Shown here piece after piece: positions 780-35,332 of a stretch of 64,000 nucleotides of DNA; positions within the stretch are counted from its first letter, which is position 1; each line of letters opens with the position of its first letter. The position numbers were made by a program, and so were the translations under genes. Source of the stretch: a virus; the IMG/VR virus record IMGVR_UViG_3300044568_004391, positions 64,001 through 128,000 of that record; one strand, 5' to 3'. The notes beneath the pieces were generated by a model, which ran no database searches, was not told the origin of the DNA, and saw only the letters and a list, made by a program, of their open reading frames with translations.

Positions 780-1460
780 ATGAAATTTCAAATTACGGAG
801 TCCGAGAAAAAGAGGATCAAAGATCTTTATCAAATCAATGAACAAGGTTGGATGACTCATTTTTTTGATTTACTCGACGATGGGTCAACTTCATTAGATT
901 CTGATGGGAAAGGATCATCATCCGATTCTGATGACAAAGGATCGTCATCCGATTCTGATGGGAAGAAATATTCTTCCACAAACTATGATTCCGGGAATAT
1001 AATTGAACATATAAAAAAATGGGAGGGTTTTGTTGGATTTACTTATGACGACGCCGTATATCCATCAAAACCTGTTAAAGTAGGTGAGCGTTGTAAAGGT
1101 AGGTGTACTATAGGTTATGGTATTACGGATAAAAAAAAGGCAAAACCAGGTGCGACAGTCACTAAAGAACAAGCGGAACAATGGTTGAAAGATGTTGTCA
1201 ATCAAACATGCATACCTTGTATAGAAAGATGGCAGAAAAGAAATAAAATTGAAATATCAAAACCAATATTTGACGCTTTGATCGATGTTGTTTATAACAA
1301 AGGGTGTGATGGATTTACAACTTCACGAATTGCTAAAAAACTTAAAAATAAGGATATTGAAGGAGCGGGTGAGGAACTAAAAAATTGGCAAGGTTGGGGT
1401 GGAAATCAAAAAAGAAGAGACGCGGTATATAAAAACTTCTACACAAAAGGAATTAAATGA
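780..1460 (+). CDS. phage lysozyme (GH24-like) fused to leader and Ser/Asp/Gly linker
   Basis: IKKWEGF, CTIGYG, FDALIDVVYNKG and RR motifs; ATG at 780. Confidence 0.75.
   Translation: MKFQITESEKKRIKDLYQINEQGWMTHFFDLLDDGSTSLDSDGKGSSSDSDDKGSSSDSDGKKYSSTNYDSGNIIEHIKKWEGFVGFTYDDAVYPSKPVKVGERCKGRCTIGYGITDKKKAKPGATVTKEQAEQWLKDVVNQTCIPCIERWQKRNKIEISKPIFDALIDVVYNKGCDGFTTSRIAKKLKNKDIEGAGEELKNWQGWGGNQKRRDAVYKNFYTKGIK
897..965 (+). repeat. 27-bp coding tandem repeat (DSDGKGSSS, about 2.5 copies)
   Basis: gattctgatgggaaaggatcatcatcc / gattctgatgacaaaggatcgtcatcc / gattctgatgggaag. Confidence 0.85.
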
Positions 1461-8844: not shown

Positions 8845-9861
8845 ATGATTAATTTCGCAGACATTATTGTTGATCTTCAGGCGGGTGACACAGGTAAAGG
8901 GAAAGTGGCTCATGCACTTGCAAAAACAAACGACTACACACATGTTATTAGGTATAACGGAGGTGGTAATGCGGGTCACACCGTTTACCATGACGGAGAA
9001 AAAGTAGTAACCCATTTCATACCAGTTGGGGTTCTTTATAACATCCCTTCCATTATTGGACCAGGATGTGTCGTTGATCCAATCAAATTGGAGATGGAAC
9101 TCGATGATTTAACAAAGGTAAATCCAAGAGTTAGAGAATTTCTTTTTATTGATCGTGGAGTCCATATTATAACAGAACAACACAAAGAAGAGGATGGTAA
9201 AGATTTCAAAATCGGAACAACTAAAACAGGAAATGGTCCGGCTTATGTGGATAAGTACAATAGAAGTGGAATCAGATATGAAAATTATGTGACAATCAAC
9301 AATCCTTCCAACAACTACCTTTGTGATATTTATGACATTTTATTTTCTCAAGAGGATGTTAAAATTCTTTTCGAAGGTGCTCAGGGTTTTGAGTTGGATA
9401 TTGATTGGGGTGATTATCCGTTTGTCACATCTTCTCATTGTACGGCGGGTAGTGCTTGTTTGAATGGTGTATCACCCAAATACATCAGAGACATTTATGG
9501 TATTTCAAAAGCATATGTTACTTATGTAGGTGCAAAAGAATTTGAGGGTGGTCTTGATATTTTTCAGAAAATCAGAGAAGTTGGAAATGAATATGGGGCA
9601 ACTACAGGAAGACCAAGACAAGTTAATTGGTTGAATTTAGATAATTTAATCAAAGGATCCAACATCAACGGTGTTACGAAATTAATTATTAATAAAATTG
9701 ATGTATTGGAAAAAATAAACTACTATTGTTTGATTTATTTAGGTGAGGAAATTATTTTTGACAAAAAATTAGAATTCAAAAATTTTATTCACCAAACACT
9801 TATTGAAAAGTGTCCTCTAATTCAAGAAGTAATTTTTAGCTATACACCTTACGAGATATGA
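8845..9861 (+). CDS. purA: adenylosuccinate synthetase (short form)
   Basis: GDTGKGK, RYNGGGNAGHT, IGTTKTGNGPAY, FEGAQG, YPFVTSS and EYGATTGRPR motifs. Confidence 0.95.
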   Translation: MINFADIIVDLQAGDTGKGKVAHALAKTNDYTHVIRYNGGGNAGHTVYHDGEKVVTHFIPVGVLYNIPSIIGPGCVVDPIKLEMELDDLTKVNPRVREFLFIDRGVHIITEQHKEEDGKDFKIGTTKTGNGPAYVDKYNRSGIRYENYVTINNPSNNYLCDIYDILFSQEDVKILFEGAQGFELDIDWGDYPFVTSSHCTAGSACLNGVSPKYIRDIYGISKAYVTYVGAKEFEGGLDIFQKIREVGNEYGATTGRPRQVNWLNLDNLIKGSNINGVTKLIINKIDVLEKINYYCLIYLGEEIIFDKKLEFKNFIHQTLIEKCPLIQEVIFSYTPYEI

Positions 9862-13886: not shown

Positions 13887-14204
13887 ATGTCGATCACTCA
13901 AAAATACCTTACAATTAAAACAAGAACTTCTGGTTTCTCTTCACCGGCAGAATCCTATGTTGACAAAAGATTGGATCTAAATGAACTAATATGTCAAAAC
14001 TCATTTTCAACCTTTTATTTCAAATATGTCGGACCAAACACACTGGGTGTTAAGGATGGAGATATACTTGTTTTAGACAAGTCAGAAACACCAAAGGAAG
14101 GTGATTTGGTTGTCCTAACAGATAAGACATATTTTAAAATCCGTGAATACAAAGAACAGGATAATCTTTGGGGTAAAGTAACTTGGATCTTAACCAAAAA
14201 ATGA
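13887..14204 (+). CDS. umuD: UmuD-like protein, catalytic dyad apparently lost
   Basis: [20 protein letters not shown] and DGDILVLD; directly upstream of umuC. Confidence 0.75.
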
Positions 14205-15406
14205 TGAAACGAAAGATCGGTATTATTGACTGCAACAATTTCTATGTTTCTTGTGAGAGGGTATTTAATCCAACTTCAATTGGAAAACCAACGGTAGTTC
14301 TATCCAATAATGATGGATGTGTAATTGCTAGATCACAAGAGGCTAAAGCGTTGGGTATAAAGATGGGTGAACCATTCTTTCAGAAAAGAGATTTTATGGA
14401 TCAACACAGGTTCTGTGTATATTCATCCAACTATAATCTATATGGTGATATGTCAGACAGGGTGATGAGTGTTATCAAAGAATATGCAAATGAAGTTGAG
14501 GTGTATTCTATTGATGAGGCATTCGTTGATTTTTCAAATATACCTGACGATGAACTTTTGGATCGTTTACATTTTATCAAAAACGAAGTGAAGAGAAAGG
14601 TGGGGATTCCAGTATCTATTGGTGTTGGACCGAATAAAACTTTGGCTAAGTTGACATCACATATTGCAAAACAAACACCCGGTTACGACGGGGTTTGTTC
14701 TTATTGGGGTTTGAAGAACTTCAGGAACATGATGTATAATGTTGAGGTTGATGAGGTGTGGGGAATTGGAAGAAAGTGGTCCAAGAAATTAAAGACAATC
14801 GGTGTGGAATCCATCGGTCAATTTATGAATATGTCGGATTATGTTGTTAGAAAGATGATGAACATAAATGGACTCAAAACCAAACACGAGTTGTTTGAGA
14901 TGTATTGTCATCCGATCCAGCTAAAGTCCAAGATGAAAAAGAATATTGCATCCACACGATCTTTTGGTGAGGATGTTGATCAGTTTGATCAGATTGCCGA
15001 AGCAATGTATTCCTACATAAAATCGGGAGTAAAGAAACTTCAAGACAACGAAATCATCGCATCACGGGCAACCATCTTTGTAAGTGGGAACAAACACAAA
15101 GATCAAGGACATTACAGATCCAAATTGGTTTTTTTCCAAGAACCAACACAAGATGTAGATATGATTTGGTCACAAGTATATCCTCTTCTCAAGAAGATAT
15201 ATTCAAATTCCAAAAAATATAAAAAGTGTGGAATCATCTTCAACGAATTAACTCCTGAAAATTCAAAACAGATTTCTTTGTTTACCGAACCCATCCAATT
15301 GGTGTCACCACCATCGAATAAGGAAAAGAGATGGGAGATGAAACAAGAATATGTATCACAAAAATATACGACATCTTGGAATGAACTACCTCTTGTCTAT
15401 GTTTAA
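14201..15406 (+). CDS. umuC: Y-family DNA polymerase UmuC (Pol V)
   Basis: [37 protein letters not shown] and STRSFG motifs. Confidence 0.92.
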
Positions 15407-25775: not shown

Positions 25776-26128
25776 CTGTATACAATATAAGATATAAAAT
25801 GGTTGGGATAGATGCTCGACACCACCACCTCACCGTAATAATCTATTAAGTCGGGAAGGATCACATATGCGATTTTCAATGCAAAGATTTCCTGATCGGT
25901 CCTATCAAGCAAACCCAGAATCATATTCATATTTTCAATCCGAGCGGAAACGATCCTGAGTTCATAATAACTGCTGTCCTGATCATCAAGCAGTGTGGCG
26001 ATTATCCTCCCCGAAGGGTCCCTCAAATCAGAAACAGTATTGTGATCATTGTAGTGCTTGCTTTTTACAAGATCCAAATTCTCTAACTCAGGTATCATGA
26101 GAGAAACGAGTTTGTCTATCTTCTTCAT
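25772..26128 (-). CDS. paralog family A member (MKKIDKLVSLMIPEL)
   Basis: First gene of the run; TATTTAT at 26134-26140. Confidence 0.7.
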   Translation of the reverse strand: MKKIDKLVSLMIPELENLDLVKSKHYNDHNTVSDLRDPSGRIIATLLDDQDSSYYELRIVSARIENMNMILGLLDRTDQEIFALKIAYVILPDLIDYYGEVVVSSIYPNHFISYIVYR

Positions 26129-26269
26129 AACAGATAAATATACAAAAAAAATAATTGATAAAAAAATTGGATCTTAATTTTTTTCGCCGTAACTTAGCAT
26201 CATCTGACTAACCGAGAGGGGAGCAAGTATACTCCAACCTGCTTTATATTTTTTATAAAGGGGTGGGGA

Positions 26270-26626
26270 TTAAGTAAACCAATATTCACCTCCACCCACC
26301 TTTCCCTGAAAAGTTAAATCCTGTGGGTAAACCTTCTTCGGGATCCTTGTTCCCAACATAGAAACCATTTTCTTGAATACTCCCTTGACAACCTTAAACA
26401 TATCAGTCCATTCCAACATATTGACAACACCATTGGATTCAATAAAGTCCTTCTCAAAATAAAACTCCGATCCTATCCTATATGTGAAAAAACCAACCAA
26501 CTGACCATCCTTCCTAACAAATAACTGATTGTATCCATGCAACATATTCGGTTCCCTGATCTCAACCTCCAACGGTCCATCATCCAAGATAGAGTCAACC
26601 AATGTATTTAATTGTCTCTCTGTCAT
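26270..26626 (-). CDS. paralog family B member (MTERQLNTLVDSIL)
   Basis: Shares N-terminus and SNGV..ML with 26628. Confidence 0.7.
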   Translation of the reverse strand: MTERQLNTLVDSILDDGPLEVEIREPNMLHGYNQLFVRKDGQLVGFFTYRIGSEFYFEKDFIESNGVVNMLEWTDMFKVVKGVFKKMVSMLGTRIPKKVYPQDLTFQGKVGGGEYWFT

Positions 26627-26627
26627 T

Positions 26628-26966
26628 TCAATTCCTTGTAAATAAATACCCACCCGTAAGTTTACAACAATATTCTAAACTATCCAATATAGATGGGTTG
26701 GGTATATATTCTTTAACAATAGAAGCAACCCTTCCGTATAAACCATAAAGAAGTTCTATCTGATCCTCCTCCTTTAACATATCAAATACACCATTGGATT
26801 TAACAAACTCAGGCCATAAGAAAAAGTTAATGTCACCACCATACGCAGCAACCCAATCACCATCTTGAGTTTGAACATTACACCTCCCTTCTTCACCAAC
26901 ATTAACAACTAATTCATTGTCACCTATTATGCTTTCAACCAAAGTATTTAATTGTCTCTCTGTCAT
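26628..26966 (-). CDS. paralog family B member (MTERQLNTLVESII)
   Basis: TATTTAT at 26985-26991. Confidence 0.7.
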   Translation of the reverse strand: MTERQLNTLVESIIGDNELVVNVGEEGRCNVQTQDGDWVAAYGGDINFFLWPEFVKSNGVFDMLKEEDQIELLYGLYGRVASIVKEYIPNPSILDSLEYCCKLTGGYLFTRN

Positions 26967-27030
26967 ATCATTACTATTGATAATATAAATACCAATACAT
27001 AATAAATTTGGAATTGTCAAATATTCTATT

Positions 27031-27172
27031 ACAGGGGGGATCAGGTGTTAGGGGATGGGTAAACCCCCTCCATACCCTATTGACCCCCCCTCCCCCTCCG
27101 TATGCCCCCCATATACCCCCCTAAGATGGGTCAAAAAGGGGGTTTAATCCCCTCTATAAAGTTTTCCCCCCT
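27031..27172. other. G/C homopolymer-run non-coding tract at strand divergence
   Basis: More than 10 runs of C3-7 or G3-6 in an AT-rich genome. Confidence 0.7.
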
Positions 27173-27237
27173 GAAAGTGAAAAAAATGTTTATAAAATTT
27201 TTTGGAAAAATTTGGGATTTTTGTCTTATATGTTTTT

Positions 27238-27302
27238 GGAAACATTGACCCCCTCTTTAAGAATGATCTGTATATATGAAATAAAAATTTTTGGAAAAAT
27301 TT
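27238..27302 (+). repeat. ~65-bp dispersed repeat, copy 1 (ATTGACCCC..TGAAATAAAATTTYTGGAAAAATTT)
   Basis: Second copy at 28048-28112; core also at 27194-27213 and 30463-30483. Confidence 0.75.
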
Positions 27303-27342
27303 ACAAAATCGGGTTTTATATATATGATTGAAAAAAAACAAT

Positions 27343-28011
27343 ATGTTAGAAAATTTCAAATGGGGGAGTCAAGATTCTGAGACACAAAATTACTGTATAA
27401 ATGAAATTTTGGAAAACAACACATATTCAAAAATCTTCAATGTTGATCAAGGGGATATTGTTGTTGATTTGGGAGGGTCTAATGGGATCTTTAGTTATTC
27501 CATTTTAAATCGTAAACCTATGTTTATCTATGTTCTTGAGGCTATATCCGATCAGGTTAAATTAATTGATGAGAATTTAGGAGAATATCCTCACTTATCT
27601 ATTCACGGGGCACTTTCTGAAAAGAAGACAATTAAGGAAATCAGGTGGGGGTCTTATGTTGATTATAATATCCCAACTTTTTCATTTGAAGAATTTATTC
27701 ACGGGTTTAATATCCCAAAGATTGATTTCTTCAAGGTGGATATAGAGGGTGGGGAGTATGATATATTTAAAAAAGAACATATTGATTATTTGTTATCCAT
27801 TCCAAAGATCGTTTGTGAGTTTCATCTTCATAGGGACGAGAGTTTGAATAACTGTAAATTCAGATATTTCAGGGACAATATCTTACCCAACTTTTCTAAC
27901 TTCCATGTTTTTTCCTTGGACGGTGCTGATATTAAGTGGGATCTATGGAACGAACATTTTTTGGAATATTATACCGAAGTAATTTTTCATTTTGATAATA
28001 GGACACATTGA
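27343..28011 (+). CDS. FkbM-family methyltransferase
   Basis: VVDLGGSNGIFS and IDFFKVDIEGGEY motifs. Confidence 0.85.
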   Translation: MLENFKWGSQDSETQNYCINEILENNTYSKIFNVDQGDIVVDLGGSNGIFSYSILNRKPMFIYVLEAISDQVKLIDENLGEYPHLSIHGALSEKKTIKEIRWGSYVDYNIPTFSFEEFIHGFNIPKIDFFKVDIEGGEYDIFKKEHIDYLLSIPKIVCEFHLHRDESLNNCKFRYFRDNILPNFSNFHVFSLDGADIKWDLWNEHFLEYYTEVIFHFDNRTH

Positions 28012-28016
28012 TTTTT

Positions 28017-28042
28017 AACCCCTCTTAAGTGAGGGGTTTTTT
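28017..28042 (+). terminator. intrinsic terminator
   Basis: aacccctc-ttaagt-gaggggtt plus T-tract. Confidence 0.8.
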
Positions 28043-28047
28043 ATTTC

Positions 28048-28112
28048 TGAAATATTGACCCCTCCTTTATTATGGGGATGGGAAATCTGAAATAAAATTT
28101 CTGGAAAAATTT
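28048..28112 (+). repeat. ~65-bp dispersed repeat, copy 2
   Basis: Matches 27238-27302 at both ends. Confidence 0.75.
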
Positions 28113-28145
28113 TTTAATTTTGTTGGGGTTCATTATCTTTGGGAT

Positions 28146-28490
28146 ATGGAAAGGAAATCTGATTTGATCTTGCTTCGTTTGTTTCAAGAATTTCGGTGGG
28201 TTTCATATGGGTCTATCAAAGATCATATTAACTATAGAATTCCTGATGGGGATATGGTTTTAATTCGCAATGGTGATCCTGACAAGGAGATCTATATCCA
28301 TATGACCGGTGGTGATGCCCGGTTTAACATTGCCTTATACGAAGACCATTTTTGTGATATGTCATTGGAATATTTCAAAAAGTTTCTTCGGGTCTTTCTT
28401 TTGGAACATGGATTGCATCGGTATTCAAGGGTGGTGAAATGGGACTTCCCTTTATTTCGAAGACCTCATGGTTTCATCTCCCCTCTTTGA
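28146..28490 (+). CDS. hypothetical protein
   Basis: ORF behind TATCTTTG (28134-28141). Confidence 0.6.
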   Translation: MERKSDLILLRLFQEFRWVSYGSIKDHINYRIPDGDMVLIRNGDPDKEIYIHMTGGDARFNIALYEDHFCDMSLEYFKKFLRVFLLEHGLHRYSRVVKWDFPLFRRPHGFISPL

Positions 28491-28503
28491 GGTTAATTTA
28501 TAT

Positions 28504-28641
28504 CCCCTCCCTTATTGGTGAGGGGTTTTTTATTTTTTATTATATTTATTTGTAAATAATAATTCTATGACACAACGACTAATATTAACAGAAGAAGAAA
28601 AAAGAAACATCCAAAAGATGTATGGTATGATTAATGAACAA
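28504..28641 (+). repeat. cassette head: terminator + TATTTAT + leader-coding DNA
   Basis: Promoter and leader nearly identical to about 29040-29142; terminator nearly identical to 29472-29517. Confidence 0.85.
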
Positions 28642-28980
28642 CCTGATGACCAATTAAAAATGCTTCAAAATGAAGGTTATATTGATGTAACAGATTCTGT
28701 TCATAAAGGCGAATATGTATTAGAAATTCCTGATGGTAAAAACTATAAAGTCAAAGGTGGTGGTTATCAATTTAAGCTTTTAACAGATGATAATAAAGAA
28801 ACAGGTTATCTTTTTTTATCTGAAAATGGAGTAAGAACACCTTCTATGGAGAAAGGTCCATTCTATGTTGAGGATAATGGAAAAATGATTCGTCTTAATC
28901 AAGAATTTATAGGGATTTTAGGTCAAAATGGAAGGATTTTGTATAACCAAAAATTAAATCAAGTTAAAATTGAAAGATAA
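28567..28980 (+). CDS. leader-bearing hypothetical protein
   Basis: MTQRLILTEEEKRNIQKMYGMINEQ followed by unique cargo. Confidence 0.75.
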   Translation: MTQRLILTEEEKRNIQKMYGMINEQPDDQLKMLQNEGYIDVTDSVHKGEYVLEIPDGKNYKVKGGGYQFKLLTDDNKETGYLFLSENGVRTPSMEKGPFYVEDNGKMIRLNQEFIGILGQNGRILYNQKLNQVKIER

Positions 28981-29067
28981 ATTTTTATAAACTATATATT
29001 TAAGAACCTCTCCAATACGGGGAGGTTTTTTTGTTTTCAATTATATTTATTTGTAAACAATAATTCT

Positions 29068-29469
29068 ATGGCACAACGACTAATATTAACAGAAGAAGAA
29101 AAGAGAAACATCCAAAAGATGTATGGTATGATTAATGAACAAGAAGAGACCAATTTCGATAAAAATTACTTTATGTCTAAAAAGACGGGAACTGTAACCT
29201 TCGGTTCTCAAGCCATTCCATTAGAAGTTGACGGGATTAAGGTTTCTGACTACAAGACCCAATGGAAAAGAAATTTCAAAATAGAGAATATAGGGGGTAG
29301 AGGATTTCAACCTGGGGTTTTCACATGGACATACGGAGAGGAAGTTCCAACGGGAGTTATGGGTTATAGTACTGATTCTGATGTACGTACATCAGAACCA
29401 GGTATATCAATAAAAGATAGTGCAAATAAAGAAGTTGGCACACTTATTTTTGAGTTACCTTGGGATTAA
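29068..29469 (+). CDS. leader-bearing hypothetical protein
   Basis: MAQRLILTEEEKRNIQKMYGMINEQ followed by different cargo. Confidence 0.75.
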   Translation: MAQRLILTEEEKRNIQKMYGMINEQEETNFDKNYFMSKKTGTVTFGSQAIPLEVDGIKVSDYKTQWKRNFKIENIGGRGFQPGVFTWTYGEEVPTGVMGYSTDSDVRTSEPGISIKDSANKEVGTLIFELPWD

Positions 29470-29559
29470 ACCCCCTCCCTTATTGGTGAGGGGTTTTTTG
29501 TTTTTTATTATATTTATATATAAAATAAAATAAAATAAAATAATTTTAAAATCAATAAA

Positions 29560-29970
29560 ATGAGAAAAGTTAGATTGACGGAATCAGAATTGGTCCGTAT
29601 CATAGAAAGAATTGTAAAAGAAGAATCCTTAACGGGAGGTAGATCAAAACCAGAATTCAAAGGTAGATTGGCTAAATCCAAAAAAGATTTTGGGATGGGA
29701 TGGAGAGATGAATATGACAGCCCATCTGAAGGACCAGGTGAGAGATCAGGTTCGATTGTGAGTTATGAAGATTTTATGCGTTTCGCAGAAGACCACCCCG
29801 ATTTGGCTGAGTTTTATTTTGGTTGGGCCGGTGATGAATCAGGTGAAGTTTTTGACAAATATGGTGGTGTAGATCTATTTAATCCTGAAGAAGATATGGC
29901 AAATCTTGAAGAGATGAAAAGAAAAGTCAGAGTTATGGAAAATAAACTCAAAAGGAAAATGGGAAGATAA
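29560..29970 (+). CDS. leader-bearing hypothetical protein
   Basis: MRKVRLTESELVRIIERIVKE; TATTTAT at 29511. Confidence 0.75.
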   Translation: MRKVRLTESELVRIIERIVKEESLTGGRSKPEFKGRLAKSKKDFGMGWRDEYDSPSEGPGERSGSIVSYEDFMRFAEDHPDLAEFYFGWAGDESGEVFDKYGGVDLFNPEEDMANLEEMKRKVRVMENKLKRKMGR

Positions 29971-29974
29971 CAAA

Positions 29975-30382
29975 ATGAAAAAAGTTGTAAGATTAACGGA
30001 AAATGATTTGATTAGATTAACCAAGAGAGTTCTACTCGAATCGAAAGCTCAAGAGGCGGTAGACACCGCCTTTGAAAAATTTGAATCAGGTCAAAAACCT
30101 CCAGCAGGTATGGTTCAAAATGTAAAAAAATGTTTGGAGAATACACCTCTCAGAAATATTGTTTTGGCTGGGGGAGATGTTGCTCAGTTAATTTTGAGTG
30201 TATTAGCATTGACGTTACTTGTCATGGTTGGTTGGGAAGCAGCATTGGTTGTGGCGGGGATTCATGGGGCACTTAGTATTTTAGAACACACATATAAAAT
30301 AAAAGGTGTAAATGTTTTTGCAAAATCAGAAAAAGATATAAAATTTTTCGTTAATTGTTTACAATCAAAAGGGGTAATTTAA
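29975..30382 (+). CDS. leader-bearing protein with hydrophobic hairpin
   Basis: MKKVVRLTENDLIRLTKRVLLE; internal TM-like stretch. Confidence 0.7.
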   Translation: MKKVVRLTENDLIRLTKRVLLESKAQEAVDTAFEKFESGQKPPAGMVQNVKKCLENTPLRNIVLAGGDVAQLILSVLALTLLVMVGWEAALVVAGIHGALSILEHTYKIKGVNVFAKSEKDIKFFVNCLQSKGVI

Positions 30383-30427
30383 TAATCGATATTTCTTCTT
30401 TTATTGGAATAAAAAATAAAATTATTT

Positions 30428-30455
30428 CGGGGACCGAATTGGTCCCCTTTTTTTT
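30428..30455 (+). terminator. intrinsic terminator
   Basis: ggggacc-gaatt-ggtcccc plus T-tract. Confidence 0.8.
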
Positions 30456-30530
30456 GAAATCTAAAATTTCTGGAAAATTTTTTGATATTATGGGGGTTTA
30501 TTCTTATGTTTATAATATAGACCCAAAATT

Positions 30531-30959
30531 ATGAAACATATCATTTCCGTTATTTGTTTTATGATCTTCTCTCTTGTGGGAAGTTCACAAACCATCACAA
30601 AGGCTGCCATCTATAGATCCACCAATCAGAAGATTTCCATTTCAGAATTTGCTGGCGGTGCCATCATCTTCTATTATCAAAATCCTGACTATACTCACAT
30701 CGTTGACCTCCTTCATTTCGGGGTTCAAAACAAGACCGAAGCTCTTGCTCTTATGGATGAATGTCTTCATGTTTTGAGTATGGAAAAAACCGGACAAGAC
30801 CAACATATCTATCATAACTATAAATTCCATCAGATCATCCGGTATGGGTTCAATCAAAACTCCGTCATCATCGGCCGGTTATATCTGAATGCCAAAACCA
30901 TCGAGGAAATCAAACTTGCTCTTCTGAACTATTCTTATTCATCAATCAAAAATCAATAA
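30531..30959 (+). CDS. exported hypothetical protein
   Basis: Bacteroidota-style signal peptide ending SS-Q. Confidence 0.65.
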   Translation: MKHIISVICFMIFSLVGSSQTITKAAIYRSTNQKISISEFAGGAIIFYYQNPDYTHIVDLLHFGVQNKTEALALMDECLHVLSMEKTGQDQHIYHNYKFHQIIRYGFNQNSVIIGRLYLNAKTIEEIKLALLNYSYSSIKNQ

Positions 30960-30960
30960 T

Positions 30961-31569
30961 ATGAAAAAAGTTATTATCTTAATTTGTTTGGGACTTATTT
31001 CCTTGACCTCTTCTTCCCAACAATATATCGATATATTTCATTCAAGTCGCGGACCACATGTGATTAGCGCTTGTGAAGATGGAAAAGGTGGTTATGTTCA
31101 TTTCTATCAAATGGAACCTATGGGGTTTTCAAGATCTACTCTTCTCTTTTTTGAAAATAAATCTGAAGACGATTCTCTGTCCGATGATTTTTATGAGGTG
31201 ATTGACTTAACAAAAAAAATGTTAAAAAGAAAATATGTTGAAAAAAGAAAGGAAACTCCCGACACAACTCTTGTCAATTTCACCACAAATATGAAATGTG
31301 CCTTTCTTCATAAGGATGTTTGGTATTTTGATCGTGATGTAAACCTTTCTTATGAACTCACCAGAGAACCTTGGGGTATGGAAATAAAGGTCGAAACTGA
31401 TCGTCTCTGCGATGATAAAAACCCAAATATCTGCGTCCAAGGTGGAAGGTTTGTATTTTTGGATTATGAAGATTTTTATCTCTTCCCACTTTATTATTTG
31501 GATTGGGATGATGTGAATAGAATTCTAAACGAAAAAAAATCTCTTGAGCAATATTTTATTGATCAATAA
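30961..31569 (+). CDS. exported hypothetical protein
   Basis: Signal peptide ending SS-Q. Confidence 0.65.
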   Translation: MKKVIILICLGLISLTSSSQQYIDIFHSSRGPHVISACEDGKGGYVHFYQMEPMGFSRSTLLFFENKSEDDSLSDDFYEVIDLTKKMLKRKYVEKRKETPDTTLVNFTTNMKCAFLHKDVWYFDRDVNLSYELTREPWGMEIKVETDRLCDDKNPNICVQGGRFVFLDYEDFYLFPLYYLDWDDVNRILNEKKSLEQYFIDQ

Positions 31570-31599
31570 TTTTTATTGTTTCCCTATGTATTTATTAAT

Positions 31600-32028
31600 A
31601 TGGGAAAAAGAATTGTAATTTCAGAAAATGAGAAAGTAAAAATTCGTAAGTTATATGGATTGTCTGAAGGACTTGATTTTGAGCAGATCATGCTTGGGAT
31701 CGGGTCCATCATTTTTTTAAGAAAGTTTTTTCAAGGACTTCGTTCTGATCCCAAATTCAAAGCATTATTTCTTCGTGATGAAGATGTGGAACAGAATATC
31801 AAACACTTGGATAAGGTGATGGAAAGATATTTGAATGGTCTCGATGAGTATTACAGTGATATTGAAGAATATGACCGGGTGGAAATTCGTGATATATATG
31901 AAAACGATATTAAACCTTTGCTCAGAGAAAAGAAACTTGTGGATATGGAAGATATTGTGAATTATTTGAGTTACAAACTAGATTATCTTAACAAACAAAA
32001 GGAAAAGAAATTCTTTTCCAAAGATTGA
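31600..32028 (+). CDS. leader-bearing hypothetical protein
   Basis: MGKRIVISENEKVKIRKLYGLSE; TATTTAT at 31589. Confidence 0.7.
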   Translation: MGKRIVISENEKVKIRKLYGLSEGLDFEQIMLGIGSIIFLRKFFQGLRSDPKFKALFLRDEDVEQNIKHLDKVMERYLNGLDEYYSDIEEYDRVEIRDIYENDIKPLLREKKLVDMEDIVNYLSYKLDYLNKQKEKKFFSKD

Positions 32029-32074
32029 CCCCCCTTTTAATATGGGTGTAGTATATTTATCATAAAAAAATACA

Positions 32075-32422
32075 ATGAAAAAAATAGTTAGACTTACAGA
32101 ATCCGATCTCGTTAAAATTATCGAACGAGTAATCGAAGAGGGAAAGACAGATAAAGGAGTTAAGGAAAAGGATGTTGACGTAAAAATTGAAACATTTCAA
32201 GATTCCATAAAAAACCATCTCAAATCAAAAGATAATGTTACGGTTAAAAAGGTGGGGGATGATTTTGAAATTCATTCTGATGGTGATCATATCGGTCAGG
32301 TTATGTTTAGGAAAGAAGGGATTACAGTAAAAAAAGTTGGAAACAAGTTTGGAAAGAAATTCGATTTCAACGAACTCGGGAATATAAAAAAGGAAATTAA
32401 TCGGATAATAAAAGAAGATTGA
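32075..32422 (+). CDS. leader-bearing hypothetical protein
   Basis: MKKIVRLTESDLVKIIERVIEE; TATTTAT at 32054. Confidence 0.75.
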   Translation: MKKIVRLTESDLVKIIERVIEEGKTDKGVKEKDVDVKIETFQDSIKNHLKSKDNVTVKKVGDDFEIHSDGDHIGQVMFRKEGITVKKVGNKFGKKFDFNELGNIKKEINRIIKED

Positions 32423-32487
32423 ATATTTTAAACCCTCCGCCTTCAAGGAGGGTTTTTTATTTGAATTATTTTTCTTATATTTGTTTT

Positions 32488-32979
32488 ATGAAATACATCC
32501 TCCTTATTTTTGGTCTTTTGGTTTCATCACAGGTGATGAGCCAAACTTTCTACTCTGATTTCATCAGTGACCCAATCGATGGTGAACATGGTTTTGTTGG
32601 AAATGGAGATATTCAATTCCATCAATTTTCTGACACACCCGACTCTGTGGTGGTTTTCGGAATCACCGATTCATATTTCTGTGAAGATTCATTTTTGTAT
32701 GTTGAATTTGCTGTTATGGTTAATGGTGTATGGAACAATCATGAACTTATGCTTTATCCATATAACACATCCAAATGGGCATACCTCGATTTTCATATCA
32801 ACGACCCACTTATTCAGGATCTCATTAGGGGATCCAAATATGTTTATAAGTATATCGATGCTCACTGTAGTATTGAACGAGGTGAGGGATCACTTGCTGG
32901 TGTGACCGCCGGATTTAAGAAAGCCGGTATTCCAATCAGATGGAAAGATGGTGTAAATCACGGGTTGAGTGCTTGGTGA
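32488..32979 (+). CDS. exported hypothetical protein
   Basis: Start MKYILLIFG after TATATTTG (32476); signal peptide ending MS-Q; flanked by near-identical terminators at 32430 and 32998. Confidence 0.65.
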   Translation: MKYILLIFGLLVSSQVMSQTFYSDFISDPIDGEHGFVGNGDIQFHQFSDTPDSVVVFGITDSYFCEDSFLYVEFAVMVNGVWNNHELMLYPYNTSKWAYLDFHINDPLIQDLIRGSKYVYKYIDAHCSIERGEGSLAGVTAGFKKAGIPIRWKDGVNHGLSAW

Positions 32980-33056
32980 TAAACAATTTAAATTTTGAAC
33001 CCTCCCCCTTCAAGGAGGGTTTTTTTATTTTCGATATATTTATAAAGAAAAATAAG

Positions 33057-34472
33057 ATGTATATTTCTGAATCTGAAAAGAGGCATATCTTAAAACTCTA
33101 TAATCTATTGATTGAAGATACAAGACCTCTGCAAAAACTCAGAGAATGTAAAATTTCGAGTGACGGTCGATATATTGTCTATGATAATCAAGTTTACCTA
33201 ACATCTACGGGGGAACTTGCTCCAATATCTGAAGCGTGGTCATTAAGTGACATTCTTCACACAGGTGCGGACTTAGTATCTATGGGTATGGATTTTGTTA
33301 TTCCTGGATCAGGTGCTGTAATCGACGTTCTCAATGCATTGAGTTATATAATCGAGGCTCAATTCGTTGATCCCGAAAAGAAAGATTCTCTTTATATAAT
33401 GGCGGCAATAACTTTCGGTTTCGTCATCCTTCCTGGTCCACTACAAGCCGTGGCGGTTCCGTTGAAAAGAGCGGTTAAGACAGGTGTTGGATTGGCAAGT
33501 AAAACCGTAGTTGCAGGGTTGAAAATAATTGGGAAATCATTGGATGTTTTACTCGTTAAGATTCCTGAGTATATTGGTCAGGCTCTAAAATCCAAAATGG
33601 GTAAAAGATTATTGGGAAAATGGGGTGATCGATTGAGTGGTTTTATAAGTGGGTTTACTTCAAGAATAAAGACTATATTAAGATCAATTGGATCTGCACC
33701 AACTGCCACCAGGGCTGGTACTCAAACTGCAACTAGAAAATTACTTCAAACGCTCTCTAAAGCTCAACCACAATTTCTCAAAAATTTCATGTCCAAATTA
33801 CCTAAGATTAATAAGGGTAAGATGGTCTTAAGAAAGTTGGGTTTTGCACAAGGTCGATCCTATAGATACGTAGGTAAGTCAGGTAAAGCGTCAACCGCAA
33901 CGATAGTGGGTATTACAGATTCTACGGTAAGAATTTCTTTTAAAACAGGATCCAAAGTTGCTGAATCTACAGTTCCTATAAATACATTTATTTCACGAGC
34001 TGTCGGAGCTCCTTGGATAAGAAGGGGTGCAGGAGTCACAGTTCCATTTTTCATAAAGAGATTTGCGGATTGCTTGACTTCAGATGGAAGTGTGGATGAA
34101 GCGGCGTTGGAAAAATTATCCGATATAAATCCTGATGTGACATCAGAAGAGTCATTGAATTACTTAAGGGAAGAAGTTGCAAGTTACGAAGGGGAAACTG
34201 GTCAATATACAGAAAACGAAAATGCCCAATTATTTCAAGAAGCTTTGAAAAAATTGGAATATGATCTTGGTAATTTTGGGCCCAATAAGGATGGTATCGA
34301 TGGTAAATTTGGACCAAAGACCAAATCGGCTTTGGAAAAATTCCAAACAAAAAACGGTTTAGAGGATTCTCTGGGTAAAATGGACAGAATAACGGCAAAT
34401 ACTCTTGCCGATAGATTACCGGATGATGATGAAACTGCAATTAAATTAAGAAAATTAGTTTACCCGGATTAG
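33057..34472 (+). CDS. leader-bearing protein with pre-toxin-like hydrophobic region and C-terminal peptidoglycan-binding domain
   Basis: MYISESEKRHILKLYNLLIE; DFVIPGSGAVIDVLNALSY; FQEALKKL..DGIDGKFGPKTKSALEKFQ. Confidence 0.7.
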   Translation: MYISESEKRHILKLYNLLIEDTRPLQKLRECKISSDGRYIVYDNQVYLTSTGELAPISEAWSLSDILHTGADLVSMGMDFVIPGSGAVIDVLNALSYIIEAQFVDPEKKDSLYIMAAITFGFVILPGPLQAVAVPLKRAVKTGVGLASKTVVAGLKIIGKSLDVLLVKIPEYIGQALKSKMGKRLLGKWGDRLSGFISGFTSRIKTILRSIGSAPTATRAGTQTATRKLLQTLSKAQPQFLKNFMSKLPKINKGKMVLRKLGFAQGRSYRYVGKSGKASTATIVGITDSTVRISFKTGSKVAESTVPINTFISRAVGAPWIRRGAGVTVPFFIKRFADCLTSDGSVDEAALEKLSDINPDVTSEESLNYLREEVASYEGETGQYTENENAQLFQEALKKLEYDLGNFGPNKDGIDGKFGPKTKSALEKFQTKNGLEDSLGKMDRITANTLADRLPDDDETAIKLRKLVYPD

Positions 34473-34483
34473 AATTTATCATT

Positions 34484-35332
34484 ATGAAGTATGACGAAAA
34501 AAGAATAAGAAAAGTATTATCGGCTTTTAAATCATATTATGGTGAGGATAAGCCTAAACCAAGATATGGTAGTTGGTATGATTTTGATATACCTAATGTT
34601 TTTAAAAGTTTGGGTTATCCCGAAAAGTTTTTGCAAGCTCTGTTGAAACATAATATTGAATTTTATGAGATATGGGACGATCCTGAATATAAAATTGTCA
34701 TACCTAAAGAAAAAACATTTGATGTTGTGATTGACTGGATGGGAAGACAATATTTAACTAAAAGTTATGGTCATAGAATTGATGCGTTTGATAAAGATGA
34801 TATTGAAGATATGATTTCAAACTGTAACCCGTGTTATGATGAAGGTGATGAAATGGACGTTGATTATGGTGATTCAGATGGAGAGTGGGAAATAACGTCT
34901 TTTGAACAAATAACGGAATCCGATTACCAACGAATTAAAAGTAAACTTTTGATAAAAGAATCCGATAAGGAAAATTCAAAAGAAGAAAAATTGATGAGAT
35001 TTTTGAATATATATATGGACCAAATTTTGGACGGAGGTGTTTGGTATGATGATGAGAATTATTGGTTCATAAATCCTGAAACCAAAGAATGGATTTTTGA
35101 ATATCGTAAAAAAACGAAGTATGTGTTTTTTTATAGAAAATATTTTGAGATTATACAAGACCTTACAGGAATGAAATCTCCAATTACAACCGAATTGAAA
35201 AAAATACTCACTAAATGGGTGTCAAAGAAATTTGGTTTTAATGTAGAAGATGTTATACCTTATTATAGTGAAGAAAGGGCTACGGTGAGAGATGTATTAC
35301 AAAAAAATAATAGGTGGGACGAGATGAATTAA
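34484..35332 (+). CDS. two-domain hypothetical protein, paralog of 61179-61841
   Basis: IVIPKEK..IDAFDKDDIE..DEG matches VIIPEKK..VEGYDKEQVE..WEG; internal ITESDYQRIKSKLLIKE. Confidence 0.65.
   Translation: MKYDEKRIRKVLSAFKSYYGEDKPKPRYGSWYDFDIPNVFKSLGYPEKFLQALLKHNIEFYEIWDDPEYKIVIPKEKTFDVVIDWMGRQYLTKSYGHRIDAFDKDDIEDMISNCNPCYDEGDEMDVDYGDSDGEWEITSFEQITESDYQRIKSKLLIKESDKENSKEEKLMRFLNIYMDQILDGGVWYDDENYWFINPETKEWIFEYRKKTKYVFFYRKYFEIIQDLTGMKSPITTELKKILTKWVSKKFGFNVEDVIPYYSEERATVRDVLQKNNRWDEMN

What the first reader, a model, noticed from the sequence alone, without database searches (positions are those of the whole stretch)
28504..29520. Cassette architecture caught in the act: terminator-promoter-leader duplicated, cargo replaced
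Seen: about 100 bp from TATATTTATTTGTAAA through ..ATTAATGAACAA is nearly identical before 28567 and 29068, and identity stops right after the INE-Q codons. The terminator cccctcccttattggtgagggg is identical at 28504 and 29472. Related (A)CCCTC/GAGGG(T) terminators recur at 355, 12456, 16249, 21730, 28017, 29005, 32430, 32998, 39789, 40723 and 41680; those at 32430 and 32998 are near-identical and flank one gene. Inference: conserved terminator, promoter and leader blocks act as homology arms for gene-cassette exchange, without a dedicated integrase.
Basis: partly seen in the sequence, partly recalled or inferred. Interest (0 to 1): 0.72.

Follow-up and report, generated by a model that had tools for sequence, protein, structure and literature searches.

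The report
Shuffling terminator-promoter-leader gene cassettes in phage
In the variable region of a large uncultured T4-type phage, small genes sit in a shared frame (stop hairpin, phage promoter, 25-codon protein tag), and close relatives carry different genes in that frame; this extends the "PeSL" gene shuffling already known from T4-like phages into the coding sequence.

Summary
Window 28541-28641 and 29042-29142 are 97% identical (98 of 101 bases). Identity falls to about 30% exactly after codon 25. The hairpin terminators at 28504 and 29472 are identical.

The two protein bodies are unrelated (BLASTP aligns only residues 1-25; profile comparison probability 0.6%). Each body family also occurs elsewhere behind four or five other leader types. 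This same leader precedes eight unrelated bodies in public metagenomes.

Three metagenome contigs share 84-97% identical flanks with the window. They differ by whole cargo replacements whose breakpoints lie at the leader end (28641) and at terminator starts (28017, 28504, 29467). No integrase or resolvase was found in the 152-kb record.

The phage is a fragment of a roughly 300-kb T4-type phage, and the window is its non-colinear, hyperplastic part.

It matches the PeSL model of T4-type phages (Arbiol 2010, Comeau 2014) combined with a leader resembling the capsid-targeting sequence of T4 internal proteins. The differences are a TATTTAT promoter box, probably late, and a homology block that runs in frame into the coding leader. 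This scan has reported PeSL-like cassettes on other DNA before.

Leader function and the recombination itself are inferred, not shown.

The parts
28017..28044 (+). Intrinsic terminator after the methyltransferase gene; right-hand breakpoint in relative L010
   Evidence: Hairpin of -14.2 kcal/mol plus U run. L010 rejoins the window at 28017 with 96% identity.
28040..28148 (+). Second class of repeated intergenic module ('module 2'), upstream of gene 28146
   Evidence: Aligned copies at 27230, 28040, 30440 and 32010 (the last truncated), and in L010 and L011.
28146..28490 (+). 114-aa anchor gene shared with relatives L010 and L012
   Evidence: L012 1-495 matches window 28145-28641 at 97.2%. ORF shown.
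28504..28531 (+). Terminator T1; left edge of the cargo-A cassette
   Evidence: -14.3 kcal/mol. Identical to the hairpin at 29472. L011 homology begins at 28504.
28542..28549 (+). Promoter box ATATTTAT, 18 nt upstream of the ATG
   Evidence: The motif [AG]TATTTAT lies within 45 nt upstream of 40 of 192 crude genes, against 4.1 +/- 1.9 in shuffles and 7 for the reverse complement. The same box precedes the prohead protease and scaffold genes in all four relatives and the major capsid gene in one.
28567..28641 (+). 25-codon leader of gene A (style 2); left homology arm ends at 28641
   Evidence: 97% identical to 29068-29142. Five cassettes with four different cargoes are near-invariant up to this point (alignment A2).
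28642..28980 (+). Cargo A body (112 aa plus stop), a small beta-rich protein of unknown function
   Evidence: Its family is found behind five leader types. AlphaFold2 body pLDDT is mostly 78-90. No fold match in PDB.
29002..29037 (+). Terminator T2, a different hairpin sequence
   Evidence: -16.4 kcal/mol, z = -5.1. Also present after cargo A in the independent contig L011.
29043..29050 (+). Promoter box ATATTTAT of cassette B
29068..29142 (+). 25-codon leader of gene B
29143..29469 (+). Cargo B body (108 aa plus stop), unrelated to A
   Evidence: hhalign of body A against body B gives probability 0.6%. The family has 11 relatives behind four leader types. No fold match.
29472..29499 (+). Terminator T3, identical to T1; right-hand breakpoint in relative L012
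   Evidence: L012 rejoins at 29467-29535 with 91% identity.
29510..29517 (+). Promoter box of the next gene
29560..29970 (+). Next gene, with a style-1 leader (the RLTESEL type)
32430..32462 (+). Terminator, 94% identical to the one at 32997; the two flank gene 32483-32979
   Evidence: (family D7).
32997..33030 (+). Twin terminator followed by a TATTTAT box
33057..34472 (+). Style-2-leader protein with a peptidoglycan-binding domain; its homologue in a complete relative carries a style-1 leader instead
   Evidence: PF01471, E = 3.2e-10. BLASTP against G002 shows 66% identity starting at residue 24, directly after the leader.

Best explanation
The window is the hyperplastic (variable) region of a roughly 300-kb T4-type phage. 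Small accessory genes there are built as cassettes: a G+C-rich hairpin terminator, a phage promoter box (ATATTTAT about 15-25 nt before the ATG), a 25-codon N-terminal leader, and then a variable protein body that ends at the next terminator. The terminator-promoter-leader block is about 110-140 nt, is repeated, and is nearly identical between copies. General homologous recombination between copies, within one genome or between co-infecting relatives, therefore inserts, deletes and replaces bodies. No site-specific recombinase is needed. The left crossover lies inside the promoter-leader block, so each swap is in frame. The right crossover lies in the next terminator-promoter block. Each new body thus inherits the same transcription signals and the same protein tag. 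The tag itself is most likely a propeptide comparable to the T4 capsid-targeting sequence: an amphipathic helix ending in hydrophobic-x-Glu, which would load the body into the prohead and then be removed by the T4-type (S77) prohead protease. Shown here: the repeats, the breakpoints in relatives, the unrelatedness of the bodies, and the combinatorial pairing of leaders with bodies. Inferred: that recombination is the cause, the timing of the promoter, and head targeting and cleavage.
For: Repeats and the sharp identity drop. Bodies unrelated. The same 25-aa leader precedes 8 BLAST-unrelated bodies. Body B occurs behind 4 leader types and body A behind 5; the leader-end Glu is invariant in the B alignment and the homology always begins just after the leader. 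A third cargo, the peptidoglycan-binding protein, has a style-2 leader here and a style-1 leader in G002. Breakpoints in close relatives lie at 28641, 29467, 28504 and 28017. L010 and L012 overlap by 123 nt at 100% identity, so they come from one strain with a different cassette content. A four-gamete pattern appears within the leader in alignment A2. Of 17 CCTC/GAGG hairpins, 14 lie in the 42-kb non-colinear stretch (P = 4e-6). G000 1-61 kb is colinear with the complete relative G002 while the window is not. G002-G005 carry gp23 and the S77 protease. The promoter box is enriched tenfold and is orientation-specific, is more frequent at leader genes (7 of 10 against 33 of 182, P = 8e-4), and precedes head genes in relatives. 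AlphaFold2 models show a leader helix, a linker with pLDDT below 50 at residues 20-25, and a confident body. Two leader proteins carry lysozyme or peptidoglycan-binding domains, as expected for injected proteins. No integrase or resolvase was found. Published PeSL model: PMC2839356, PMC4122927. T4 capsid-targeting sequences and cleavage after Glu: PMC3012670, PMC5694885.
Against: The comparative evidence rests on three short metagenome contigs (1.4-2.4 kb). The right flank of L012 matches the window at only 88-91% and covers only repeated elements, so synteny on that side is not proven. Neither reads nor mini-circles could be examined. This 152-kb fragment contains no prohead protease or capsid gene, so the T4-type assignment rests on colinearity with G002. 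The promoter box could be a host-type promoter rather than a late one. No experiment shows head targeting or cleavage, and the leaders show no obvious sequence likeness to the T4 capsid-targeting sequence as I recall it (not compared with a tool).
Confidence: 0.72

Rival explanations
1. Simple tandem duplication of one gene, followed by fast divergence of everything except the N-terminus and promoter. The two bodies would then be diverged homologues.
For: The two genes are adjacent, of similar size (137 and 133 aa), and both bodies are beta-rich.
Against: Identity drops from 97% to background within one codon. BLASTP aligns only residues 1-25. Profile-profile comparison gives probability 0.6%. 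Each body has its own family with 45-59% identical relatives that carry quite different leaders.
Confidence: 0.03
2. The apparent cargo swaps are assembly chimeras: metagenome assemblers joined different parts of one genome at the repeated block.
For: The breakpoints coincide with repeats, which is where mis-joins occur. The contigs are short. About 48% of the genome is missing, so cargoes D, E and F could lie elsewhere in it.
Against: The repeat copies are imperfect, and the longest exact runs are only about 40 nt. The leader-cargo junctions for D, E and A recur, with sequence variants, in independent sources: JGI, ENA, Logan and NCBI. Leader swaps on cargo B and on the peptidoglycan-binding protein are seen on long contigs of 78, 266 and 296 kb with dissimilar leaders.
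Confidence: 0.08
3. Cassette turnover is driven by homing endonucleases or illegitimate recombination. The shared block is conserved only because it works (promoter, translation start, peptide tag) and is not used as a homology arm.
For: An HNH endonuclease gene sits next to the variable cassettes in L010 and is absent from G000 and G002. Homing endonucleases are known contributors to T4-like plasticity (PMC4122927). Peptide-level selection on leaders is evident: third-position entropy is 1.06, against 0.44 at second positions.
Against: Four independent breakpoints fall exactly at block edges. The block is 97% identical at the DNA level within this genome, although other style-2 leaders here differ strongly. 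Identical 46-nt direct repeats bracket the two-gene unit. I found no homologue of the L010 HNH gene in this genome, though no family-level endonuclease scan of the window was run.
Confidence: 0.12
4. An integron-like or other site-specific system moves the cassettes, with the hairpins acting as attC-like sites.
For: Each cassette ends in an imperfect inverted repeat, and the array is unidirectional.
Against: No tyrosine or serine recombinase was found in 152 kb. The hairpins are followed by U runs and fold as ordinary intrinsic terminators. Each cassette has its own promoter, unlike integron cassettes.
Confidence: 0.03

Closest known systems
PeSL (promoter-early stem-loop) mobile regulatory cassettes of T4-type phages: RB49/phi1, T4/PST, KVP40/nt-1 (Arbiol et al. 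2010, PMC2839356; Comeau et al. 2014, PMC4122927)
   Same: A composite stem-loop terminator plus promoter of about 100 nt, repeated in front of small orphan genes. The copies are concentrated in hyperplastic regions of a T4-type genome. Insertions, deletions and replacements between close relatives have breakpoints in these modules. No site-specific recombinase is involved.
   Different: PeSL promoters match the sigma-70 consensus and are early. Here sigma-70-like sites are not enriched (71 found, 89.6 expected). The conserved box is TATTTAT, which also precedes head genes in relatives, so it is probably late. The hairpin always precedes the promoter. The conserved block extends 75 nt into the coding sequence, so exchanges are in-frame protein fusions. 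Mini-circles could not be looked for.
T4 internal proteins (IPI, IPII, IPIII, Alt) with their capsid-targeting sequence, and the polymorphic IP loci of T-even phages (reviewed in PMC3012670, which cites Repoila et al. 1994; PMC5694885)
   Same: A short conserved N-terminal peptide sits on otherwise unrelated small proteins. The peptide ends in hydrophobic-x-Glu, the cleavage motif of the T4-type prohead protease. Cargo proteins are highly diverse between related phages. The phage group encodes an S77 protease.
   Different: The leaders are longer (22-25 aa or more, against 10-20) and show no obvious sequence likeness to the T4 sequence as I recall it (not compared with a tool). There are at least five leader classes, mixed combinatorially with the bodies. 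The scale is much larger: 88 body clusters for one leader class in 78 loci. Head targeting and cleavage are untested here.
Integron gene cassettes
   Same: A unidirectional array of small, swappable, mostly orphan genes, each bounded by an imperfect inverted repeat.
   Different: There is no integrase. Each cassette has its own promoter and a true terminator. Exchange appears to be by homology, not at attC sites.

Membership tests
PeSL cassettes of T4-type phages | Intergenic composite of a stable stem-loop (terminator or attenuator) and a promoter | tested here: met
   Hairpins of -14 to -16 kcal/mol with U runs. An oriented promoter box is enriched tenfold upstream of genes.
PeSL cassettes of T4-type phages | The promoter is a sigma-70-consensus early promoter with an AT-rich upstream region | tested here: not met
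   Sigma-70-like sites number 71 against 89.6 +/- 10.8 in shuffles. The conserved element is TATTTAT without a -35 box, and it also precedes head genes in relatives.
PeSL cassettes of T4-type phages | Host genome is T4-type, and the modules cluster in its hyperplastic regions in front of orphan genes | tested here: met
   G000 is colinear with G002, which has gp23 and the S77 protease. Of 17 hairpins, 14 lie in the non-colinear 42 kb. The cargoes have no Pfam or PHROG function.
PeSL cassettes of T4-type phages | Differences between close relatives have their breakpoints in or at the modules | tested here: met
   Breakpoints at 28641, 29467, 28504 and 28017, with flanks 84-97% identical. Caveat: the contigs are short metagenome assemblies.
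PeSL cassettes of T4-type phages | Recombination between neighbouring modules yields mini-circles | not testable with these tools
   No reads are available. The expected circles would be 501 nt (leader-to-leader) and 968 nt (T1-to-T3).
T4-type capsid-targeting propeptides (internal proteins) | A conserved short N-terminal peptide on otherwise unrelated proteins | tested here: met
   Eight unrelated bodies behind one leader. 88 body clusters behind the style-1 leader.
T4-type capsid-targeting propeptides (internal proteins) | The peptide ends at a hydrophobic-x-Glu site of the kind cleaved by the prohead protease | tested here: met
   The only invariant leader residue besides Met1 in alignment A3 is the Glu at the leader end. 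All leader types end in I/L/V/M-x-E. The motif is documented in PMC5694885. Actual cleavage was not tested.
T4-type capsid-targeting propeptides (internal proteins) | The phage encodes a gp21-type (S77) prohead protease | tested here: inconclusive
   Absent from this 52%-complete fragment. Present in four of five large relatives, including all three that are at least 90% complete.
T4-type capsid-targeting propeptides (internal proteins) | The proteins are packaged in the head and processed | not testable with these tools
   This needs virion mass spectrometry.
Integron | IntI tyrosine recombinase with attI and attC sites | tested here: not met
   No PF00589 or PF00239 match in the 152 kb.

The most novel reading that the evidence does not exclude
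The block may be a plug-and-play system for injected proteins. The crossover point lies at the end of a coding leader, so a single homologous exchange would give any captured body late expression, loading into the head and proteolytic release at once. The five or more interchangeable leader classes could then specify different loading routes, copy numbers or compartments. The hundred-odd body families behind these leaders in uncultured T4-type jumbo phages would be a large untapped pool of host-takeover or anti-defence proteins.
Probability: 0.4. Interest if true: 0.62.

Novelty: new variant of a known kind. Interest (0 to 1): 0.42.

Why it matters
It shows that PeSL-type modular shuffling, described for coliphage- and vibriophage-type T4 relatives, also operates in a distant, uncultured clade of roughly 300-kb T4-type phages with a different promoter. 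It also shows that the homology block can include a coding leader, so recombination swaps protein bodies in frame behind a common tag. In practice the leaders give a simple sequence handle for listing candidate virion-delivered proteins in metagenomes. The principle itself is already known, so this is a well-documented example rather than a discovery.

Tried and rejected
The longer contigs holding P0003, P0004, P0009 and P0018 (up to 266 kb) could therefore not be fetched. This limited the synteny test to three short JGI/NCBI contigs.
- IMG/VR scans found nothing with cargo A, with the flanking gene 28146, or with the degenerate leader pattern.
- GenBank phages gave no DNA match to window 27500-34500.
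- Pfam searches for the gp21 protease, gp23 and the T4 portal in the fragment, and for the gp21 protease and gp23 in L009's record, were negative. The T4-type assignment had to come from colinearity with G002.
- L009 holds a cargo-B homologue but is not syntenic with the window.
- Foldseek against PDB gave no match below E = 0.3 for either body. PHROGs and Pfam gave no function.
- Rfam found no RNA family in 26000-35000, so the conserved block is not a known RNA element.
- Repoila et al. 1994 (PMC395341) is not held and is cited only through PMC3012670.
- The diverged-homologue idea and the integron idea were both rejected (see rival explanations).

Full report
**What is there.** The window is bases 64001-128000 of a 151,984-nt IMG/VR virus record. 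The record has 34% G+C and is estimated to be 52% complete. Two adjacent genes, 28567-28980 (137 aa) and 29068-29469 (133 aa), are each preceded by three elements. The first is a hairpin terminator. The second is an ATATTTAT box 18 nt before the ATG. The third is the same 25-codon leader. At an offset of 501 nt, 28541-28641 and 29042-29142 differ at 3 of 101 positions. The following 100 nt are 37% identical and the rest is 30%. The hairpin at 28504 recurs identically at 29472. With the promoter core, 45 of 46 nt match, so a direct repeat brackets the whole two-gene unit. The six hairpins I folded have -14 to -16 kcal/mol and are followed by U runs.

**The bodies are unrelated.** BLASTP aligns only residues 1-25. 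I built alignments of each body family and compared them with hhalign, which gave a probability of 0.6%. AlphaFold2 gives both proteins a low-confidence leader helix, a linker with pLDDT below 50 at residues 20-25, and a confident body with a different strand order in each. Neither body matches a solved fold, a Pfam family or a named PHROG.

**Leaders and bodies are combinatorial.**
- In 5.8 billion public proteins, this leader (at least about 70% identical) precedes eight bodies that BLAST cannot relate to one another.
- The family of body B (11 relatives, 45-59% identity) occurs behind this short leader, behind a style-1 leader (the RLTESDL type), behind a long two-part leader, and behind half of that long leader.
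- In the body B alignment the only invariant leader residue apart from Met1 is the Glu at the leader end. Homology always starts just after it.
- The family of body A occurs behind five leader types.
- A third case is the peptidoglycan-binding protein at 33057. It has a style-2 leader here, but its 66%-identical homologue in a complete relative has a style-1 leader, and the alignment begins right after the leaders.
- The style-1 leader alone occurs 152 times in 78 IMG/VR loci, on 88 BLAST-distinct bodies. Variation is greatest at third codon positions, which points to selection on the peptide.

**Relatives differ by cassette.** A degenerate leader pattern pulled three metagenome contigs. BLASTN against the genome places them as follows (alignment A2).
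- **L012.** Positions 1-495 match window 28145-28641 at 97.2%: the upstream gene, terminator, promoter and leader. An unrelated 130-aa body follows. Similarity resumes at 29467-29535 (91%). An extra 107-aa gene with yet another leader comes next, and then 29501-29611 (88%).
- **L011.** Its first 320 nt match 31748-32067 (84%). A lipoprotein-like gene follows. Then 28504-29021 (97.5%) appears, which is the cargo-A cassette in another neighbourhood, with its edge at the terminator start.
- **L010 (read on its minus strand).** It matches 27249-27297 (96%). Next come an 89-aa gene and two leader cassettes with new bodies. It rejoins at 28017-28267 (96%). These cassettes occupy the place of the window's methyltransferase gene.
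- **One strain.** L010 and L012 come from one sample and overlap by 123 nt at 100% identity. They share a SNP against the window, so they describe one strain with a different cassette set.
- **Absent here.** Bodies D, E and F, the HNH gene and the small genes have no homologue in G000 or G002.
- **Within the leader.** Two polymorphic sites show all four combinations across the five copies. This hints at exchange inside the block, although recurrent mutation is possible.

**Genome context.** The fragment holds no capsid, portal or protease gene. However, G000 1-61 kb is colinear at 30-80% amino-acid identity with 6-64 kb of G002. G002 is a 296-kb, 100%-complete IMG/VR genome that encodes a gp23-type capsid protein and an S77 prohead protease. 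Across the window the colinearity breaks down, so the window is a hyperplastic region. Of 17 CCTC/GAGG hairpins, 14 lie in that 42-kb stretch (P = 4e-6). The record has an SbcC/gp46-like nuclease. G002 has a weak RecA-like ORF. No integrase or resolvase was found.

**The promoter.** The motif [AG]TATTTAT lies within 45 nt upstream of 40 of 192 crude genes. Shuffles give 4.1 +/- 1.9 and the reverse complement gives 7. Seven of ten leader genes have their own copy, against 33 of 182 other genes (P = 8e-4). In four relatives the same box precedes the prohead protease and scaffold genes, and in one it precedes the capsid gene. In T4 these are late genes (established knowledge), so I infer a late promoter. 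Sigma-70-like sites are not enriched.

**Interpretation.** The architecture and the breakpoints fit homologous recombination between repeated terminator-promoter(-leader) blocks. This is the PeSL model of T4-type phages (PMC2839356, PMC4122927). That model was proposed for roughly 100-nt modules that cluster in hyperplastic regions and carry their own promoter and terminator. The leader resembles the T4 capsid-targeting sequence. That sequence is a 10-20-aa propeptide shared by otherwise diverse internal proteins and removed after Glu by the prohead protease (PMC3012670, PMC5694885). Two leader proteins here have lysozyme or peptidoglycan-binding domains, which fits proteins that are injected into the host. 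This case differs from both precedents in three ways: the promoter type, the in-frame coding arm, and the number of interchangeable leader classes.

**Limits.**
- The contigs are short, and the right flank of L012 consists only of repeated elements.
- Chimeric assembly is unlikely, because the copies are imperfect and the junctions recur in independent sources. It is not excluded.
- The recombination, the timing of the promoter, and head targeting and cleavage are all inferred.

**Earlier work.** This scan has noted PeSL-like cassettes on other genomes and leader notes on this genome. They agree with what I tested independently here.

Noticed in passing
window 27230-27330, 28040-28148, 30440-30533, 32010-32077; L011:262-388; L010:148-262 (minus strand): A second class of repeated intergenic module. 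It has an ATTGACCCC hairpin-like part followed by an AAATTTCTGGAAAAATTT element with a TTTC-NN-GAAA palindrome. The copy at 32010 is truncated and fused to a TATTTAT promoter, whereas L011 keeps a full copy at the same site. This module therefore also marks a breakpoint. It may be another promoter or operator class.
   Followed up: partly
L010:1871-2410 (+): An HNH endonuclease-like ORF lies next to the variable cassettes in the relative. It has no homologue in G000 or G002 and may be a homing endonuclease contributing to local turnover.
   Followed up: partly
window 780-1460: A style-2-leader protein carries a lysozyme domain (phrog_7, E = 5.8e-25; it also hits 'internal virion lysozyme motif'). 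It is a candidate virion-borne wall-degrading enzyme.
   Followed up: partly
L099:293-739 (G002, just upstream of the prohead protease gene): A 148-aa protein with a leader-like N-terminus (the MKIIITENQY type) sits where T4 has prohead core genes 67 and 68. Paralogues of it lie among the leader cassettes of G002 at 107162, 111691 and 116814.
   Followed up: no
window 8845-9861: A 338-aa ORF matches phrog_1211 (E = 2.9e-62), annotated as an adenylosuccinate-synthetase-like enzyme of the type used for 2-aminoadenine DNA. This hints at modified DNA.
   Followed up: no
window 14183-15406: A Y-family (UmuC-like) translesion DNA polymerase gene (phrog_1268, E = 4e-116; 35-37% identical to phage and prophage UmuC genes).
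   Followed up: no
L012:977-1300: A 107-aa gene with a third leader style (the KIRHIQESN type) is inserted between two promoter copies. The same leader style precedes body-A relatives P0022, P0026, P0027 and P0029.
   Followed up: partly
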